A stretch of 64,000 bases of DNA from an uncultured Methanosarcinaceae archaeon (GTDB lineage: Archaea > Halobacteriota > Methanosarcinia > Methanosarcinales > Methanosarcinaceae). The notes below the pieces were generated by a model. It was not told the origin of the DNA. It saw nothing but the letters and a program-made list of their open reading frames with translations, and made no database searches. The stretch covers positions 352,001-416,000 of the forward strand of contig CAWJYV010000008.1 in assembly GCA_963847185.1 (NCBI GenBank), in the 5' to 3' direction. A program made the translations under genes and the position numbers. This document shows positions 2,168-7,728 of this stretch, one piece after another (within the stretch, counting starts at the first letter, position 1; each line of letters starts with the position of its first letter).

Positions 2168-3526
2168 ATGGTGATCGACGTGACTATTCATCCTATAGAT
2201 TATCGGTATGGTACAGCGGAAATGAAATATGTGTGGAGTCAAGAAAACAGACTTGCCAAAATTCTCCGGACAGAAGTTGCTCTTGCAAGGGCCGAGGCGG
2301 ATATGGGGATAATTCCTGCAGAAGCGGCTGAAATTATTTCTGAAAGCATTACTTCTGTAAAGCCTGAGAGAGTAGATGAGATCGAAGCTGAAATCCATCA
2401 TGATATGATGGCCGTGGTTCTTGCGATCTCTGAACAGTGCAGAGATGATGCTGGAAAATGGGTACATTTTGGAGCCACTTCAAATGATATTCTGGACACA
2501 GCAACAGCTCTCCAGATTAAGGATGCAATTGAGATCTTTGAAGACAAACTTAAGACTTTATTAAAAACCCTGCTTAATCAGGCAGAAGATCATAAGCAAA
2601 CTGTCTGCTGTGGCAGGACCCACGGGCAGATTGGAGTTCCAACAACTTACGGGCTCCGTTTTGCTATATGGGCTTCAGAGATCTCAAGACATCTCGAGAG
2701 ATTGTACCAGCTTACTCCGAGAGCAACTGTAGGACAAATGACTGGAGCAGTTGGGACACAGGCTGCATTTGGAAAATCCGGAATTTTAATACAGAAACTT
2801 ACCATGCAACACCTTGGAATTGGAGCTGTCGATGTTTCCAATCAGATCATCCAAAGGGATAGGCATGCTGAATTCGTAATGTGGATGGCAAATGCCGTCA
2901 CTACTCTGGATAAAATAGGAGTCGAAATCAGAACTCTTCAGCGAAGCGAGATCGCCGAGATTGAAGAAAGCTTTGGAAAAAAGCAGGTAGGATCATCTAC
3001 CATGCCTCATAAGCGCAACCCAATAAAATCAGAACAGATCTGCGGGCTTGCAAGGATTGTAAGGGCTATGGTCGAACCTGAGCTTCTTAACAACACCCTA
3101 TGGGATGAAAGAGACCTTACCAACTCTTCCTGCGAGAGGGTGGTTTTTCCTGAAGCCTGTGTTCTGACCGACCATATACTTAAGCTCGGGATTTCTGTGC
3201 TTGAGAACCTGAGGTTCTATCCTGAAAATATTCGGAAGAATTTGGAATTGCTTAGGGGCCTAAACATGGGAGAAGCTGTCATGATCGAACTTGCAAAGAG
3301 AGGTGTGGGCAGGCAGGAAGCTCATGAGCTTGTCCGGGATGCAGCAATGAGGGCTCATGATACAGGGCAATATTTCAAAAACGTCCTTCTGGAAACTCCT
3401 GCTGTTGCAAGGTATCTGTCTGCTCTCGATATTGAAAATCTCGTAAATCCTGATAAATATATAGGAACTGCAGTTGAACAGGTTGAAGCACTCGTTGTAA
3501 AACTTCGTGAGGGTTATTCCCTCTAA
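2168..3526 (+). CDS. purB: Adenylosuccinate lyase
   Basis: HFGATSND, GRTHGQ, GSSTMPHKRNP signature. Confidence 0.97.
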   Translation: MVIDVTIHPIDYRYGTAEMKYVWSQENRLAKILRTEVALARAEADMGIIPAEAAEIISESITSVKPERVDEIEAEIHHDMMAVVLAISEQCRDDAGKWVHFGATSNDILDTATALQIKDAIEIFEDKLKTLLKTLLNQAEDHKQTVCCGRTHGQIGVPTTYGLRFAIWASEISRHLERLYQLTPRATVGQMTGAVGTQAAFGKSGILIQKLTMQHLGIGAVDVSNQIIQRDRHAEFVMWMANAVTTLDKIGVEIRTLQRSEIAEIEESFGKKQVGSSTMPHKRNPIKSEQICGLARIVRAMVEPELLNNTLWDERDLTNSSCERVVFPEACVLTDHILKLGISVLENLRFYPENIRKNLELLRGLNMGEAVMIELAKRGVGRQEAHELVRDAAMRAHDTGQYFKNVLLETPAVARYLSALDIENLVNPDKYIGTAVEQVEALVVKLREGYSL

Positions 3527-3768
3527 CCTTTTTCTTTCTTTTAAGCTAATCAATAAGGGCGATTAACTGATGGAAAAATATAAATTACTTGTTTCTCAGT
3601 TCAAGTATAGAGCTTAATAACGTTTTGTCCAAAAAAACAGTTTTGCGCAAGAATTGTAAAGCTCCGAACTTCTTCATTTATGTGAAAGATTAAATATAAA
3701 TGTTTATATCCTATGAGCTTTATTATATTAAAACAACTTTGTCAAAAGTTTCATCCAACTTGGGTGAT

Positions 3769-3863
3769 TGAGGCATCTAAAAATTAGGTGTTGCGTAACT
3801 TAAAATGTCTAGTTGGGCTAGATATGTAGATGTTTTAGGTGTGAAAGTGGATTAGATGCCTCA
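3769..3863. ncRNA. Candidate structured small RNA, copy 1
   Basis: TGAGGCATCT...AGATGCCTCA closing stem; conserved blocks shared with 4658-4753; TATA-like motif on minus strand at 3885-3892. Confidence 0.55.
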
Positions 3864-4083
3864 TTAACTCCTATGTAGAGGTTATTTATAAAATTTGTGC
3901 TAATTTCCTGATTCTATCTTCTCAAAAAAATAATCCTTCCCTTCTCTATTCTTCCATTTTTTACCTCTTATCTTTTCCCTCTATTGTTCTCAATTTTCGA
4001 AGCTATTTTCTTTGTTTCCTCTTATCCAATTACTCATAGGGTAAACCGTCTTTTTAGATATCTAATTTACGATCCTGAAGCAT

Positions 4084-4400
4084 GGAAATCGGAGATCTTG
4101 TGGAAGTTATGATGTAATTACAACAGTGTGAGGTGCTTTTCGCCCCGAGTTCCGTCTCCCGAGCTTCGCTTCCCGAGTTCCGCGTCGGGATCACAGGAAA
4201 TTGGAGATTTTCTGGGAGTTGCGATGTAATCGCAACAGCACGGGGTCTGTTCACTTGCTTCGCTCGCTCAAGCAGACTATTATGGTTTAAAATCCGAAAA
4301 AAATCCCATTGTAGAAGCCATCAGTCCTTTTTGATGCGCTCAAGAGGACTAATTTATGGCTTTTTGATGCTTCTAGTGGGTGGGTACAGAGAATTTTAGT
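4084..4400. repeat. Composite intergenic palindromic/direct repeat element (MITE/REP-like)
   Basis: ~50-bp imperfect direct repeat (4084-4133, 4196-4245) with hairpin GTTGCGAT-GTA-ATCGCAAC; CCCGAG x3; GCTCAAG..GACTA..TTATGG x2. Confidence 0.6.
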
Positions 4401-4657
4401 TTTTAATGTAAATATTAGATTTTTTGAATTTGATCGGTGTTTGTGCCCTAACCTTCCATAATTATAAAAAAATAGTGGTTCCTTCCAGATAGGATGTGGA
4501 CTTTTGTGCTATTTCAGGGCTATTCTGTCCGGTCATGTGTAAAAAATGCTTCTGTGACTTAAATTAATTTTCAAGTTAATTTTTATTTTGTGGTATAACT
4601 ATAAACGCTTATATATGATGATTTTCTATCCCTTTGAGCGTTGCTTTATCCAAGTAT

Positions 4658-4753
4658 TGAGGCATCTGAAATAGGTGTTGCGAAACTTAAAATATCTATC
4701 TGGGCTAGTTTGGGTAGATTATTTCATGGTGTGAAAGTGGATTAGATGCCTCA
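4658..4753. ncRNA. Candidate structured small RNA, copy 2
   Basis: Closing stem extends to 13 bp (TATTGAGGCATCT/AGATGCCTCAATA); same conserved blocks and same minus-strand TATA-like motif (4777-4784) as copy 1. Confidence 0.55.
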
Positions 4754-5040
4754 ATAATTTCTAATGATAAGGTTATTTATATAATTTGTGTTTACTGTAT
4801 GCACAACCGCCCAAAACTGACATTTTACAGTAGATTGTTTATGTTTCCTTGATTGTTTTCAGTATCTATGTAGTATTTTTTTATAGTGATTTCTTCCTTC
4901 TGCTTGTGTTTTCTCCTGATTTATTTTGTTAAGTTCTTCTGTCCCGAAACGGATAGTGCTGTATATGTAAACTATGGTCCAGAATTATTTACAAGTTATT
5001 TTTCCTTAAGCTTGAAGTCGCTAGTGTTTGAGACACTTCA

Positions 5041-6666
5041 TTATTCCTGCTGGGAAGGTTTGAATACTTCCAGATTTTCCCAGTTGAATTTATCTGGAGG
5101 ACAGGCTCTTATGCATTTCTGACAGTGAGCTCCTTCACAGAGGTCAGTGCTTATCATAACTCTGTTTTCCTCATCAATTGTTATAGCATCATTAGGGCAG
5201 ACTTTTATGCACTTTTTGCATTCGGGGCAATCCACAACCATGGTCATATATGTCCCGACCCTCTCCAGCACATAGAGTCCTTCTTCCCCAAGCACAGGAA
5301 TGTCCCTTTCTACACGTTTCTCGACGATGGGATTGTCTATAGGATCATCAAGCCCTGGAAGTCCTTTCTTTTTGAGATATTTTTTAAACATTTTAAAAGG
5401 CATACCCTCTTCCCAATACGCAAGTTCAAGAATATACGCATCCCTGAATTCAGGGGATGTTGCAAACATAATGTGAGTACCTATAATCTGGTTTGCAATG
5501 TCCTGAAGTTCCCAGAGCCTCTCTTCTGAAAGAAGGACTTCTTTTGCTACTATTAGGGAAGTATTTCCTATCTGACAGATTCTTTTCGTGGAATAGGGGA
5601 TCAACCCTATTTTCTGGGCTTTTGCCGCATCCATATAGGTGCCAGCAGCTCCTGCCATATAAGCTGTATTTATATCTTCCATTTGAATTCCTGCAGATGA
5701 ACAGAGGGTAATATGTCCTGCTCGTATGGCTCCTATAGCTTTTCCAGCTTCATGCATATCTTTTTCTGAAAATTTGATCTTATTCTGCAGGTGAATTGTG
5801 CCATCAGGGGTTTTAATCTTCGGAAGTTCAGCGAGTCCACGCCCCAGGGCTTTTTCTATCAGGGCTATAACTCCTGTCCCTGTTATACCTCTTGCTTTTA
5901 TTTGCCCTTCTTTAATTATATTTCCCGTAGCTGGATCTACAAGGTCTCCTGGGACTTGTTTCATCTCTTCGTTGAGCACATAGTTTCTCAGAAATCCGTT
6001 CTCGAATTCAAAATCAGATATCGTGAATGGAGAAGCAAGTTTCCCTTGCTTTATTTGCTGTCCTTCGAGAGCCGGTCCAGCAGCTGCGGATCCTGTATAA
6101 ATAATATCTTTCACTTTAAGGGCCATTTCGGCATTTGTCCCATAGTCCGTTGCAATTGATATCTCATCACTTTCAAGCATTCCTGATTTGACAATCAGGG
6201 CAAGGGCATCAGCTCCGACTTCGTGTTTTATTGCAGGGGGAACTCTCAGTTCGAAGTCAAATTCTTCAAATCCTGGAATTTCTTTGCTGGAAGCAATTCT
6301 GGCATTTCTATTCTGTTCTTTTATATTGTATTTCTGTTTCTTCCGCTCGCCTGCGTAAGCAAGGTCTTCTATGGAAATTCCCTGAAAGATTGACAGCTGG
6401 ATGGGGTTTCCACAAATCGAAAGCCTTTCCAGTTCTTTTCTCTCCACACCCAGAGTTTTGAATATATTTTTTACAGCGTTTACTGAAAGCTCGTGTGCAA
6501 GGTTTTGCCCATAGTGGATTGCGAAGTCCATGTGGTCCATCACATTCGCGCCGGGAAGTGGGTTCCTTAAAGTTATTACAGTTCTTTTGATCTCTCCATT
6601 GTCAAGGTCAATTTTCTGAGCTCGATATCCACTTGTACCCAGGTCAATTGCAACTCCGTATCTCAT
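5041..6666 (-). CDS. ramA: Methylamine methyltransferase corrinoid protein reductive activase (RamA family)
   Basis: N-terminal AIDLGTSG ASKHA motif, DYGTNAE, C-terminal ferredoxin-type Cys motifs CPECKKCIKVCP and CEGAHCQKCIRACP. Confidence 0.9.
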   Translation of the reverse strand: MRYGVAIDLGTSGYRAQKIDLDNGEIKRTVITLRNPLPGANVMDHMDFAIHYGQNLAHELSVNAVKNIFKTLGVERKELERLSICGNPIQLSIFQGISIEDLAYAGERKKQKYNIKEQNRNARIASSKEIPGFEEFDFELRVPPAIKHEVGADALALIVKSGMLESDEISIATDYGTNAEMALKVKDIIYTGSAAAGPALEGQQIKQGKLASPFTISDFEFENGFLRNYVLNEEMKQVPGDLVDPATGNIIKEGQIKARGITGTGVIALIEKALGRGLAELPKIKTPDGTIHLQNKIKFSEKDMHEAGKAIGAIRAGHITLCSSAGIQMEDINTAYMAGAAGTYMDAAKAQKIGLIPYSTKRICQIGNTSLIVAKEVLLSEERLWELQDIANQIIGTHIMFATSPEFRDAYILELAYWEEGMPFKMFKKYLKKKGLPGLDDPIDNPIVEKRVERDIPVLGEEGLYVLERVGTYMTMVVDCPECKKCIKVCPNDAITIDEENRVMISTDLCEGAHCQKCIRACPPDKFNWENLEVFKPSQQE

Positions 6667-7327: not shown

Positions 7328-7468
7328 TTCAAACTTTTCGAGAGCTTACTTCTATAGTATAATTTAATTCTTTGAAACTCTTTGGGTAACACAATTGTAA
7401 AATGCTCTCCGGAAAAGATTAAATACATGAAATGCGTTTAAGGGGACGCGCTTCTTAAAGTCCGTTGT

Positions 7469-7553
7469 GACGAGATAGCCAAGCCCGGTATGGCGCGGGA
7501 TTGCTAATCCCGTGATGCCCCGCATCCCGGGGGTTCGAGTCCCCCTCTCGTCG
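7469..7553 (+). tRNA. tRNA-Ser (GCT)
   Basis: Acceptor GACGAGA/TCTCGTC+G, anticodon arm CGGGA-TTGCTAA-TCCCG, long variable arm, GGTTCGAGTCC. Confidence 0.95.
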
Positions 7554-7728
7554 TTTCATTTTTTCATAAACTTTTTTATTCATTCAGTATTTATGCAAGA
7601 TGTTCGTAGCCTCAAATTTTCCTATCCTGCCGTTGTTCAAGACTATTAATTTTCATATATTGCCCCCCCTTTTCTTAATAGAGTTCAAGTCAATGAAATT
7701 TATATTATTTAAAAATTAATATCTATTA

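What the first reader, a model, noticed from the sequence alone, without database searches (positions are those of the whole stretch)
3769..4790. Two paralogous ~95-nt structured elements, each with a conserved promoter-like motif, between purB and ramA: candidate new sRNA family
Seen: copies at 3769-3863 and 4658-4753 share a 10-13 bp closing stem (TGAGGCATCT/AGATGCCTCA) and the blocks AGGTGTTGCGxAACTTAAAAT and GGTGTGAAAGTGGATT, around a variable inner hairpin; the flanks have diverged. Both have CACAAATTwTATAAATAACC on the minus strand, placing a start about 28-30 nt away at the base of the stem. The minus-strand RNA would expose UUUCACACC and CAACACCU, complementary to the GGUG core of Shine-Dalgarno sequences. 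Known: Methanosarcina sRNAs can act by masking ribosome-binding sites. Inference: redundant trans-acting sRNAs, possibly tied to methylotrophic regulation given the ramA neighbour. I cannot tell whether they match an already catalogued sRNA.
Basis: partly seen in the sequence, partly recalled or inferred. Interest (0 to 1): 0.72.

Follow-up and report, generated by a model that had tools for sequence, protein, structure and literature searches.

The report
Known Methanosarcina sense/antisense small-RNA pairs
The two repeated elements are real small-RNA genes, but they are the counterparts of transcripts already catalogued in Methanosarcina mazei, each overlapped by an RNA from the opposite strand, and their function is still unknown.

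Summary
Two ~95-nt copies (3769-3863, 4658-4753) share a closing stem, conserved blocks and a BRE/TATA motif on the minus strand. They are the only two copies in the 4.04-Mb genome, so this is not a MITE.

The family is not new. A same-genus genome (G126) carries, in the same ramA-purB spacer, two copies that match letter for letter the sequences printed for M. mazei Gö1 sRNA060 and sRNA061 (PMC11456600 supplements).

In M. mazei each element is also covered by a longer opposite-strand RNA (spRNA09, spRNA10). A 2025 preprint reports the pairs spRNA09/asRNA60 and spRNA10/asRNA61, with RNA-seq and Northern blots, but does not characterise them further.

Added here:
- The two pairs are tandem paralogs.
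- The small ORFs assigned to the spRNAs are not conserved (5-58 codons).
- The first 25 nt of the minus-strand RNA are identical in 39 of 52 distinct copies.
- No trans target scores better than shuffled seeds.
- The anti-Shine-Dalgarno idea rests on a 4-5-nt match.
- The ramA neighbourhood is not kept in a third genus.

Most likely these are convergently transcribed RNA pairs that control each other. What they ultimately regulate is unknown.

The parts
3714..3863 (-). Copy 1 RNA gene, ortholog of M. mazei sRNA061/asRNA61. The structured element is 3769-3863 and the 5' end is placed at 3863 by homology. The 3' end is uncertain; 3714 assumes the 150-nt length given for sRNA061.
   Evidence: The purB-proximal copies form a clade of 18 rows with support 99/97.
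3880..3899 (-). BRE/TATA promoter of copy 1 (CACAAATTTTATAAATAACC on the minus strand).
   Evidence: TATA centre is 26 nt upstream of position 3863.
4665..4753 (-). Copy 2 RNA gene, ortholog of M. mazei sRNA060/asRNA60. The structured element is 4658-4753 and the 5' end is placed at 4753 by homology. 4665 assumes the 89-nt length given for sRNA060; the RNA may run further.
4771..4790 (-). BRE/TATA promoter of copy 2 (CACAAATTATATAAATAACC on the minus strand).
   Evidence: TATA centre is 27 nt upstream of position 4753.
4800..4817 (-). Conserved motif upstream of the copy-2 promoter (TTTTGGGCGGTTGTGCA on the minus strand). It lies inside the 3' part of the plus-strand RNA. Its role is unknown.
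   Evidence: It is present in ramA-proximal copies of genus g1, in both copies of g13 and in g2, and is absent from the purB-proximal copies of g1.
3838..3862 (-). Near-invariant 25 nt at the 5' end of the copy-1 minus-strand RNA (GAGGCATCTAATCCACTTTCACACC).
   Evidence: identical in 39 of 52 distinct copies; the other 13 differ at one position each.
4728..4752 (-). The same near-invariant 25 nt in copy 2.
3718..3990 (+). Inferred plus-strand RNA across copy 1, ortholog of M. mazei spRNA10 (272 nt). Both ends are placed by homology only.
4637..4860 (+). Inferred plus-strand RNA across copy 2, ortholog of M. mazei spRNA09 (222 nt). Both ends are placed by homology only.
3690..3712 (+). Conserved TATA-like block, the probable promoter region of the plus-strand RNA of copy 1.
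   Evidence: Its spacing to the published spRNA10 5' end looks short, so this assignment is uncertain.
4599..4621 (+). Conserved TATA-like block, the probable promoter of the plus-strand RNA of copy 2. TTATATAT at 4609-4616 is about 24-25 nt upstream of the homology-placed start at 4637.
2168..3526 (+). purB (adenylosuccinate lyase), a flanking gene.
   Evidence: Lyase_1 2e-53, ADSL_C 3.5e-22.
5041..6666 (-). ramA-like corrinoid reductive activase, a flanking gene on the same strand as the two small RNAs.
   Evidence: RACo_C_ter 1.2e-65, Raco_middle, Fer4. The M. mazei counterpart MM_0940 is named as such.

Best explanation
Identity (about 0.95): the two elements are the orthologs of two published M. 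mazei Gö1 sense/antisense RNA pairs in the ramA (MM0940) - purB (MM0941) spacer. Copy 2 (4658-4753) corresponds to sRNA060/asRNA60 with its opposite-strand partner spRNA09. Copy 1 (3769-3863) corresponds to sRNA061/asRNA61 with spRNA10.

Architecture (shown by homology and conservation): each module has two convergent promoters. A minus-strand BRE/TATA fires a roughly 90-150-nt non-coding RNA that begins at the T of TGAGGCATCT. A plus-strand TATA-like block beyond the other end fires a roughly 220-270-nt RNA that reads through the whole element and through the minus-strand promoter.

Mechanism (inferred, about 0.45): the two RNAs of a module are perfectly complementary over at least 90 nt, and their start sites face each other about 117-146 bp apart. 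They therefore most likely limit each other, by duplex formation and/or by transcriptional interference. Because the 25-nt 5' segment is the same in both paralogs, each minus-strand RNA can also pair with the plus-strand RNA of the other module. The conserved function lies in the RNA, not in the small ORFs assigned to the plus-strand RNAs. The downstream output is unknown.
For: Orthology:
- BLAST from the window finds two copies in G126.
- Their cores equal the printed sRNA060 and sRNA061 sequences letter for letter.
- Promoters and flanks align copy for copy.
- The gene order ramA - two copies - purB is the same in the window, in M. mazei and in genus g13.

Transcription of both strands in M. 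mazei:
- The supplement rows give sRNA060 at 1114177-1114265 (+) with RNA baseMean 4215, and sRNA061 at 1114828-1114977 (+) with 5457.
- They give spRNA09 at 1114086-1114307 (-) with 1535, and spRNA10 at 1114698-1114969 (-) with 4828.
- The preprint passages report RNA-seq profiles and Northern probes for both pairs.

Minus-strand promoter: the ACAAA-TATA motif is present in 53 of 55 copies, with its centre 25-27 nt from the published 5' end.

Structure on the minus strand:
- The closing stem has 94.7% of cells paired, against 28-40% when the partners are slid.
- All one-sided changes in the core 10 bp give G.U in the minus-strand RNA: columns 4/104 in 2 sequences, 9/99 in 1, 11/97 in 6.
- The consensus fold is -12.98 kcal/mol on the minus strand and -7.29 on the plus strand.

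Against a coding function:
- The reading frame of the M. mazei spRNA09 sORF gives 5-58 codons across 55 copies. The commonest length is 9 (25 of 55), and the start codon is lost in 2.
- The sORFs given for spRNA09 and spRNA10 start at different places and use different frames of homologous sequence.
- Whole-transcript translation efficiency is 0.15-0.28, against the paper's cut-off of 0.5.

Mutual control: in one table the asRNAs change by +1.14 and +1.10 log2 (padj 0.038 and 0.048) while spRNA09 changes by -0.92 (padj 0.11).

Best partner: the only outstanding pairing partners of the invariant 21-mer in the genome are the opposite strands of both copies (-35.5 to -37 kcal/mol).
Against: - No RNA data exist for this organism. 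The four metatranscriptome or metagenome runs gave only a few unstranded contigs, and three of them (4665-4812, 4629-4821, 4674-4858) run across the predicted start. They show nothing about ends or strand.
- There are no compensatory (two-sided) changes in any helix, and no inner helix is supported.
- At the inner edge of the stem, two lineages, one of them the window's copy 2, carry changes that pair only on the plus strand.
- A perfect antisense partner is complementary whatever the sequence. Mutual control therefore does not explain why 25 nt are nearly invariant, which points to a third partner that I could not find.
- spRNA10 shows no reciprocal change (-0.13, padj 0.84).
- The authors curated both sORFs as translated and state that the predicted peptides are well conserved (Fig. 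S1, which I could not see).
- The preprint did not follow these two pairs further, so no functional test exists.
Confidence: 0.55

Rival explanations
1. One reading: the minus-strand RNAs are redundant trans-acting regulators. Their exposed C/A-rich segments (AAUCCACUUUCACACC and CAACACCU) pair with mRNAs, for example at ribosome-binding sites, possibly in methylotrophic metabolism.
For: - The 25-nt 5' segment is near-invariant (39 of 52 distinct copies identical). That needs a sequence-specific partner other than the automatically complementary antisense RNA.
- It is predicted to be unpaired beyond the stem.
- Other M. mazei sRNAs act in trans (sRNA162: PMC3510493; sRNA154 and sRNA41 are cited in the preprint passages).
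- ramA and both asRNAs change in the same direction in one table (+1.16, +1.14, +1.10).
Against: - The best trans site for the invariant 21-mer is -22.8 kcal/mol, and 9 of 10 shuffled seeds find better sites (best -22.2 to -30.1).
- The match to the SD is only 4-5 nt (16S 3' end).
- The second block is not conserved: AACACC in 8 of 52, and CACCT in the interior of 7 of 52.
- In genus g2 the RNA is not next to ramA.
- The scan used duplex energy only. It did not use accessibility, annotated start sites or cross-species target conservation, so it is a weak negative.
Confidence: 0.25
2. The plus-strand RNAs are small mRNAs, as their published name spRNA says. Their small proteins are the functional product, and the minus-strand RNAs are translational silencers, in the manner of type I toxin-antitoxin pairs.
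For: - The Ribo-seq manual curation is 'yes' for the sORFs at 1114219-1114272 (17 codons) and 1114905-1114943 (12 codons).
- The preprint states that the predicted peptides are conserved (Fig. S1, not seen) and shows this logic working for spRNA24/asRNA94.
- The sORF09 start sits in the 5' arm of the stem, which the asRNA would cover.
Against: - The ORF length varies from 5 to 58 codons over 55 copies. Only the first four residues, encoded by the invariant stem arm, are shared. The window's own copies give 11 and 5 codons.
- The two paralogs' sORFs are not homologous in frame.
- All three codon positions are equally invariant in the conserved part.
- Whole-transcript translation efficiency is 0.15-0.28.
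- No proteomics entry appears in the row shown.
Confidence: 0.1
3. The structured minus-strand RNA is a protein-binding RNA, a decoy or scaffold. The closing stem presents the invariant single strand to a protein, and the plus-strand RNA acts as its sponge.
For: - The invariant sequence has no identifiable RNA target.
- Both RNAs are abundant in M. mazei (baseMean 4215 and 5457).
- A conserved U-run precedes the 3' arm.
Against: - No known protein-binding motif was found. I saw no K-turn, C/D or H/ACA features by eye.
- No Rfam family reaches its threshold. The best overlapping hit is sn2417 at 18.9 bits, against a gathering score of 80.
- The idea is speculative and nothing here tests it.
Confidence: 0.1
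4. A DNA-level element rather than an RNA: a MITE or other mobile repeat with terminal inverted repeats, or a protein-binding DNA site.
For: The terminal inverted repeat TGAGGCATCTAA/TTAGATGCCTCA resembles MITE ends.
Against: - There are only 2 copies per genome, always at the same syntenic place. The covariance model finds at most 2 loci per genome in 24 of 151 family genomes.
- Transcripts are documented in M. mazei.
- The G.U changes respect an RNA helix.
Confidence: 0.01

Closest known systems
M. mazei Gö1 sRNA060/asRNA60 with spRNA09, and sRNA061/asRNA61 with spRNA10. Catalogue attributed to Jäger et al. 2009, which I could not read. Rows seen in the PMC11456600 supplements; pairs described in bioRxiv 10.1101/2025.10.28.685009.
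   Same: The locus is the same (ramA-purB spacer) and so is the strand relative to ramA. The 5' sequence, closing stem and promoter motifs match, and there are two tandem copies.
   Different: The inner part differs between species; M. mazei sRNA060 lacks the AAGTTACGCAACGCC block. The M. mazei sORFs (17 and 12 codons) are not kept here, where the sORF09-type reading gives 11 and 5 codons. Searches of the preprint's main text for 'paralog' and 'duplicat' found nothing, so the paralogy of the two pairs seems not to be stated there.
M. mazei sRNA162/sRNA171 (PMC3510493)
   Same: A pair of homologous Methanosarcina sRNAs, conserved only in close relatives, with stem-loops and an antisense overlap with a neighbouring transcript (passages).
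   Different: sRNA162 is 191 nt with three stem-loops, and has a validated trans target (MM2441-MM2440) as well as a cis target. No sequence similarity and no target are known here.
spRNA24/asRNA94 of M. mazei, and bacterial type I sense/antisense pairs such as hok/sok, which the preprint discusses
   Same: A small RNA is overlapped by an antisense RNA, and reciprocal levels are proposed.
   Different: Those pairs have a functional small protein (sP24 is membrane-associated; Hok is a toxin). Here the ORF is not conserved.
sRNA41 and sRNA154 of M. mazei (masking of ribosome-binding sites). Seen only as citations in passages; details are recalled.
   Same: Methanosarcina sRNAs that act through exposed loops.
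   Different: No comparable complementarity to a ribosome-binding site was found here: a 4-5-nt match to the SD and no enriched target.

Membership tests
M. mazei sRNA060/sRNA061 (asRNA60/61) small-RNA family | Sequence homology to the published sRNA060 and sRNA061 sequences | tested here: met
   The window copies hit G126 at E 5.5e-37 and 3.4e-20. The G126 cores are letter-identical to the sequences printed in the PMC11456600 supplement.
M. mazei sRNA060/sRNA061 (asRNA60/61) small-RNA family | Location between ramA (MM0940) and purB (MM0941), on the ramA strand, as two tandem copies | tested here: met
   Window: purB at 2168-3526 (+) and ramA at 5041-6666 (-), with both RNAs on the minus strand. 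M. mazei coordinates are. Genus g13 has the same order.
M. mazei sRNA060/sRNA061 (asRNA60/61) small-RNA family | Transcript starting at the T of TGAGGCATCT, driven by an upstream BRE/TATA | tested here: inconclusive
   The promoter motif and spacing are conserved (53 of 55 copies, 25-27 nt). No stranded RNA data exist for this organism, and the contigs cannot show ends or strand.
spRNA09/spRNA10 (small-protein-encoding RNAs) | An opposite-strand transcript covering the element | tested here: inconclusive
   A conserved TATA-like block sits at the homologous place. Transcription was not measured here.
spRNA09/spRNA10 (small-protein-encoding RNAs) | A conserved small ORF | tested here: not met
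   The sORF09-type frame gives 5-58 codons in 55 copies, 11 and 5 in the window. The sORF10 frame is not kept either. The preprint's Fig. S1 could not be seen.
MITE / mobile repeat | Many dispersed copies per genome | tested here: not met
   2 copies in the own genome. At most 2 loci per genome in 24 of 151 family genomes.
Any Rfam 15 family, including C/D and H/ACA guide RNAs | Score at or above the family's gathering threshold | tested here: not met
   The three matches at E of 10 or less are all far below threshold. The only one on the element is sn2417, at 18.9 bits against 80. No tRNA or tmRNA lies in the region.
Anti-Shine-Dalgarno sRNA (RBS masking) | A conserved exposed segment complementary to the SD or to start regions | tested here: not met
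   The 16S 3' end is GGATCACCTCCT. UUUCACACC pairs with only 4 contiguous SD nucleotides. A CACCT-containing block occurs in 7 of 52 copies. No target scores better than shuffles.

The most novel reading that the evidence does not exclude
The published label 'small-protein RNA' for spRNA09/10 misses the conserved function. What selection keeps is the structured minus-strand RNA, with its near-invariant 25-nt 5' segment and closing stem. It was duplicated in tandem and is kept in three Methanosarcina-like genera. On this reading the segment recognises a still unknown partner (a protein or an RNA), and the convergent plus-strand RNA is its built-in antagonist. Together they would form a self-contained RNA switch, present in two cross-talking copies.
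Probability: 0.3. Interest if true: 0.45.

Novelty: already known. Interest (0 to 1): 0.2.

Why it matters
The scan rediscovered, from sequence alone, two real and abundant archaeal small RNAs, with the correct strand and start. As a discovery it is not new.

The comparative results may still help people working on M. mazei:
- spRNA09/asRNA60 and spRNA10/asRNA61 are paralogs.
- The assigned small ORFs are not conserved across the genus.
- The strongest constraint lies on the first 25 nt of the antisense RNA and on its promoter.

These results argue for studying the locus as an RNA-level device, and they name the segment to mutate first.

Tried and rejected
- Rfam scan of 3400-5100 at E of 10 or less found nothing usable. 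ARAGORN found no tRNA or tmRNA in the region.
- MITE: rejected by copy number.
- H/ACA and C/D guide RNA: I saw no ACA tail at a constant place after the stem, and no C/D boxes or K-turn. This was by eye on the alignments, with no formal test beyond Rfam.
- A leaderless ORF on the minus strand (nine codons starting one base before the stem): rejected. The published 5' end excludes the start codon, and indels after codon 9 shift the frame.
- Inner helices (CGUAA/UUACG and two registers of AUCUA/UAGAU): no support. They contain many A.C cells and the consensus fold omits them.
- Expression in this organism: 4 public runs held only 4-6% of the sampled words. When laid on the stretch they gave a few unstranded contigs of relatives. 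Three cover copy 2 together with its promoter (4665-4812, 4629-4821, 4674-4858). One RNA-library contig starts inside copy 1 (3809-4096), and one run that is probably DNA covers 3672-3836. This is not evidence for or against transcription.
- Trans-target scans with the invariant 21-mer of either strand were no better than shuffled seeds. The top plus-seed site, on contig C7 near 843,600 and matching about 17 of 20 nt, is at the level expected by chance.
- Full-text search for six sequence strings of the element found 0 papers. The hit came only from the supplement tables.
- The Jäger et al. 2009 PNAS paper is not held. Earlier findings of this scan were not open.
- Tree of 55 modules: the purB-proximal copies of genus g1 form one clade (99/97). 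Both copies of g13 fall with the ramA-proximal type. The tree is rooted only at the midpoint and some forks are weak, so I do not decide between one old duplication followed by divergence and a second duplication.
Full report
**1.
The pattern TGAGGCATCT-N60-90-AGATGCCTCA occurs exactly twice in the window, at 3769-3863 and 4658-4753. None of 100 shuffles produced a match. The repeat finder recovers the shared inner blocks and the 21-nt promoter-like motif at 3879-3899 and 4770-4790, which are 95% identical. Either strand folds into a long closing stem with energies below all 200 shuffles, z from -4.65 to -6.32. The flanking genes are as stated: adenylosuccinate lyase at 2168-3526 (+) and a RACo/RamA-type activase with a ferredoxin domain at 5041-6666 (-).

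**2. It is not a mobile repeat, and it is conserved.**
- The 4.04-Mb genome has only these two copies; the other 10 listed matches have E of 0.275 or more.
- BLAST over 121 genomes sampled from the family finds it in 18, counting the window's own genome. By genus this is 8 of 19 in g1, 6 of 6 in g13 and 2 of 2 in g2, plus one 29-nt match in g4 that covers only the promoter part.
- All 59 genomes of the genus: 27 have it, and 18 of the 39 high-quality ones.
- A covariance model built on 32 copies with the closing stem finds it in 24 of 151 family genomes. That is 15 of 34 in g1, 2 of 2 in g2 and 6 of 6 in g13, with none in the samples of the other 13 genera.
- No genome has more than two loci. 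The extra weak hits are the same loci read on the other strand.
- The order ramA - two copies - purB is kept in g13. In g2 the single copy lies beside TBP, a family-2 glycosyltransferase and a KaiC-like gene.

**3. It is already catalogued.**
No Rfam family matches, and no paper in the full-text library prints the sequence in its main text. The supplement tables of the M. mazei Ribo-seq paper (PMC11456600) do contain it:

| Feature | Coordinates in NC_003901.1 | Strand | Length |
|---|---|---|---|
| sRNA060 | 1114177-1114265 | + | 89 nt |
| spRNA09 | 1114086-1114307 | - | 222 nt |
| sRNA061 | 1114828-1114977 | + | 150 nt |
| spRNA10 | 1114698-1114969 | - | 272 nt |
| MM_0941, adenylosuccinate lyase | 1115096-1116442 | - | |

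- Both sRNA060 and sRNA061 begin with TGAGGCATCT.
- Handle G126, found by BLAST from the window, holds two copies whose cores equal these printed sequences letter for letter.
- Alignment shows window copy 1 matching the sRNA061 locus and copy 2 matching the sRNA060 locus, promoters included.
- Passages of a 2025 preprint (10.1101/2025.10.28.685009) name the pairs spRNA09/asRNA60 and spRNA10/asRNA61, located between MM0940 and MM0941. The preprint attributes the catalogue to Jäger et al. [quoted passage not shown] It then studies other pairs.
- I could not read the 2009 paper or the preprint's supplements.

**4. Anatomy of one module.**
In minus-strand orientation the parts are:
- A conserved upstream motif (TTTTGGGCGGTTGTGCA), found in copy 2 only within genus g1.
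- ACAAA-TATA, present in 53 of 55 copies with the TATA centre 25-27 nt before the published 5' end.
- The RNA itself.
- A T-run: four or more T within 30 nt of the stem in 25 of 55 copies, and five or more in 15 of 55. These are mostly in g13 and g2.
- A second conserved TATA-like block 40-60 nt further on.

In M. mazei the spRNA09 5' end lies about 21 nt downstream of that second block when read on the other strand. That block is therefore the probable promoter of the plus-strand RNA. For spRNA10 the spacing to the nearest TATA-like half looks too short, so that assignment is uncertain. Placed by homology, the window's plus-strand RNAs would run from about 3718 to 3990 and from about 4637 to 4860.

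**5. Structure and strand.**
- Only the closing stem is supported. 94.7% of cells are paired, against 28-40% for slid partners, and there is no two-sided change.
- In the core 10 bp every one-sided change makes G.U on the minus-strand RNA and would make A.C on the plus strand.
- With 52 distinct copies the consensus fold is -12.98 kcal/mol on the minus strand and -7.29 on the plus strand.
- At the inner edge (columns 14-15) the evidence is mixed. Two lineages favour the minus strand and two favour the plus strand, including the window's copy 2.
- Candidate inner helices are not supported.

**6. What is conserved.**
- The first 25 nt of the minus-strand RNA (GAGGCATCTAATCCACTTTCACACC) are identical in 39 of 52 distinct copies. 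The other 13 differ at one position each.
- The M. mazei sORF09 frame, which starts at the TTG in the plus-strand stem arm, gives peptides of 5-58 residues across 55 copies. Nine residues is the commonest length (25 of 55), and the start codon is TCG in 2. The window gives 11 and 5 residues.
- The sORF given for spRNA10 starts elsewhere and uses another frame of the homologous sequence.
- Whole-transcript translation efficiencies are 0.15-0.28, against the paper's cut-off of 0.5 and a mean of 1.13 for sRNAs.
- I therefore read both RNAs as non-coding in most species. This goes against the authors' curation and their unseen Fig. S1.

**7. Mechanism.**
- Anti-Shine-Dalgarno action is not supported. 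The 16S 3' end is GGATCACCTCCT, UUUCACACC matches only 4 contiguous SD nucleotides, and the better-matching block is not conserved.
- Genome-wide duplex scans with the invariant 21-mer find the opposite strands of both copies at -35.5 to -37 kcal/mol.
- The best other sites are -22.8 (minus-strand seed; 9 of 10 shuffles do better) and -27.4 (plus-strand seed; 2 of 8 shuffles do better).
- The best-supported reading is a convergently transcribed pair whose members limit each other, by duplex formation and/or by polymerase collision, with cross-talk between the paralogs.
- In the M. mazei table the two asRNAs and spRNA09 move in opposite directions (+1.14, +1.10 and -0.92 log2), while spRNA10 does not move (-0.13). 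I did not verify the sign convention of that contrast.
- This reading does not explain the invariance of the 25 nt. A third partner, either RNA or protein, remains likely and unidentified.

**8. Paralogy.**
A tree of 55 modules puts the purB-proximal copies of genus g1 in one clade (18 rows, support 99/97). All other copies fall in the second clade. The duplication therefore predates the divergence of the g1 species that carry it. The history in g13 is unresolved. The preprint's main text contains neither 'paralog' nor 'duplicat'.

**9. Verdict.**
This is a real feature with the strand and start correctly read, but it is already known as catalogued and Northern-verified transcripts. Its function is open. 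Interest is low as a discovery, with modest added value from the comparative results.

Noticed in passing
window 4144-4295 (spacer between the two modules): A G+C-rich dispersed repeat. A 341-nt query over 4060-4400 gives 54 matches in the own genome including itself, most of them over query positions 85-236. It contains internal direct repeats (4084-4126/4196-4238 at 81%). It has a sub-threshold resemblance to CRISPR-DR58 (23.6 bits against 38). Contigs from the public runs continue from it into unrelated sequence. It probably explains why the spacing between the two RNA modules varies between species.
   Followed up: partly
window 3690-3712 and 4599-4621: A near-palindromic TATA-like block (ATATAAAyATTTATAT) is conserved beyond the 3' side of each minus-strand RNA in genera g1 and g13. 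It is read here as the promoter region of the opposite-strand RNA. A minus-strand reading (AAACATTTATATT) is equally promoter-like and could drive something further downstream.
   Followed up: partly
window 4800-4817: Conserved motif TGCACAACCGCCCAAAAC (plus strand), containing a TGTGCACA-like palindrome in many species. It lies upstream of the copy-2 promoter and inside the plus-strand RNA. The purB-proximal copies of genus g1 have lost it. It could be a regulator site or a 3' element of the plus-strand RNA.
   Followed up: no
L027 and L028 (genus g2): The homolog is shorter (81-82-nt core), lacks the AAGTT part, ends in a U5-6 run right after the stem, and sits in a different gene neighbourhood (TBP, glycosyltransferase 2, KaiC-like). 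One g2 genome (G001) has a second copy on another contig.
   Followed up: partly
M. mazei rows in PMC11456600, supplement file 6: ramA (MM_0940) and both downstream same-strand sRNAs change by nearly the same amount in the nitrogen contrast (+1.16, +1.14, +1.10 log2; padj 0.046, 0.038, 0.048). This could mean co-regulation or read-through from ramA.
   Followed up: no
window 7468-7554: tRNA-Ser (GCT) on the plus strand, upstream of ramA. It is the only tRNA in the window.
   Followed up: no
window, minus-strand RNA just before the 3' stem arm (about 3775-3781 and 4668-4672): Most copies have a run of 5-7 U just before the 3' arm, and the annotated 3' end of M. mazei sRNA060 falls 6 nt after its U-rich tract, inside the arm. 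If termination happens there, part of the RNA population would lack the closing stem and would expose the whole 25-nt 5' segment.
   Followed up: no
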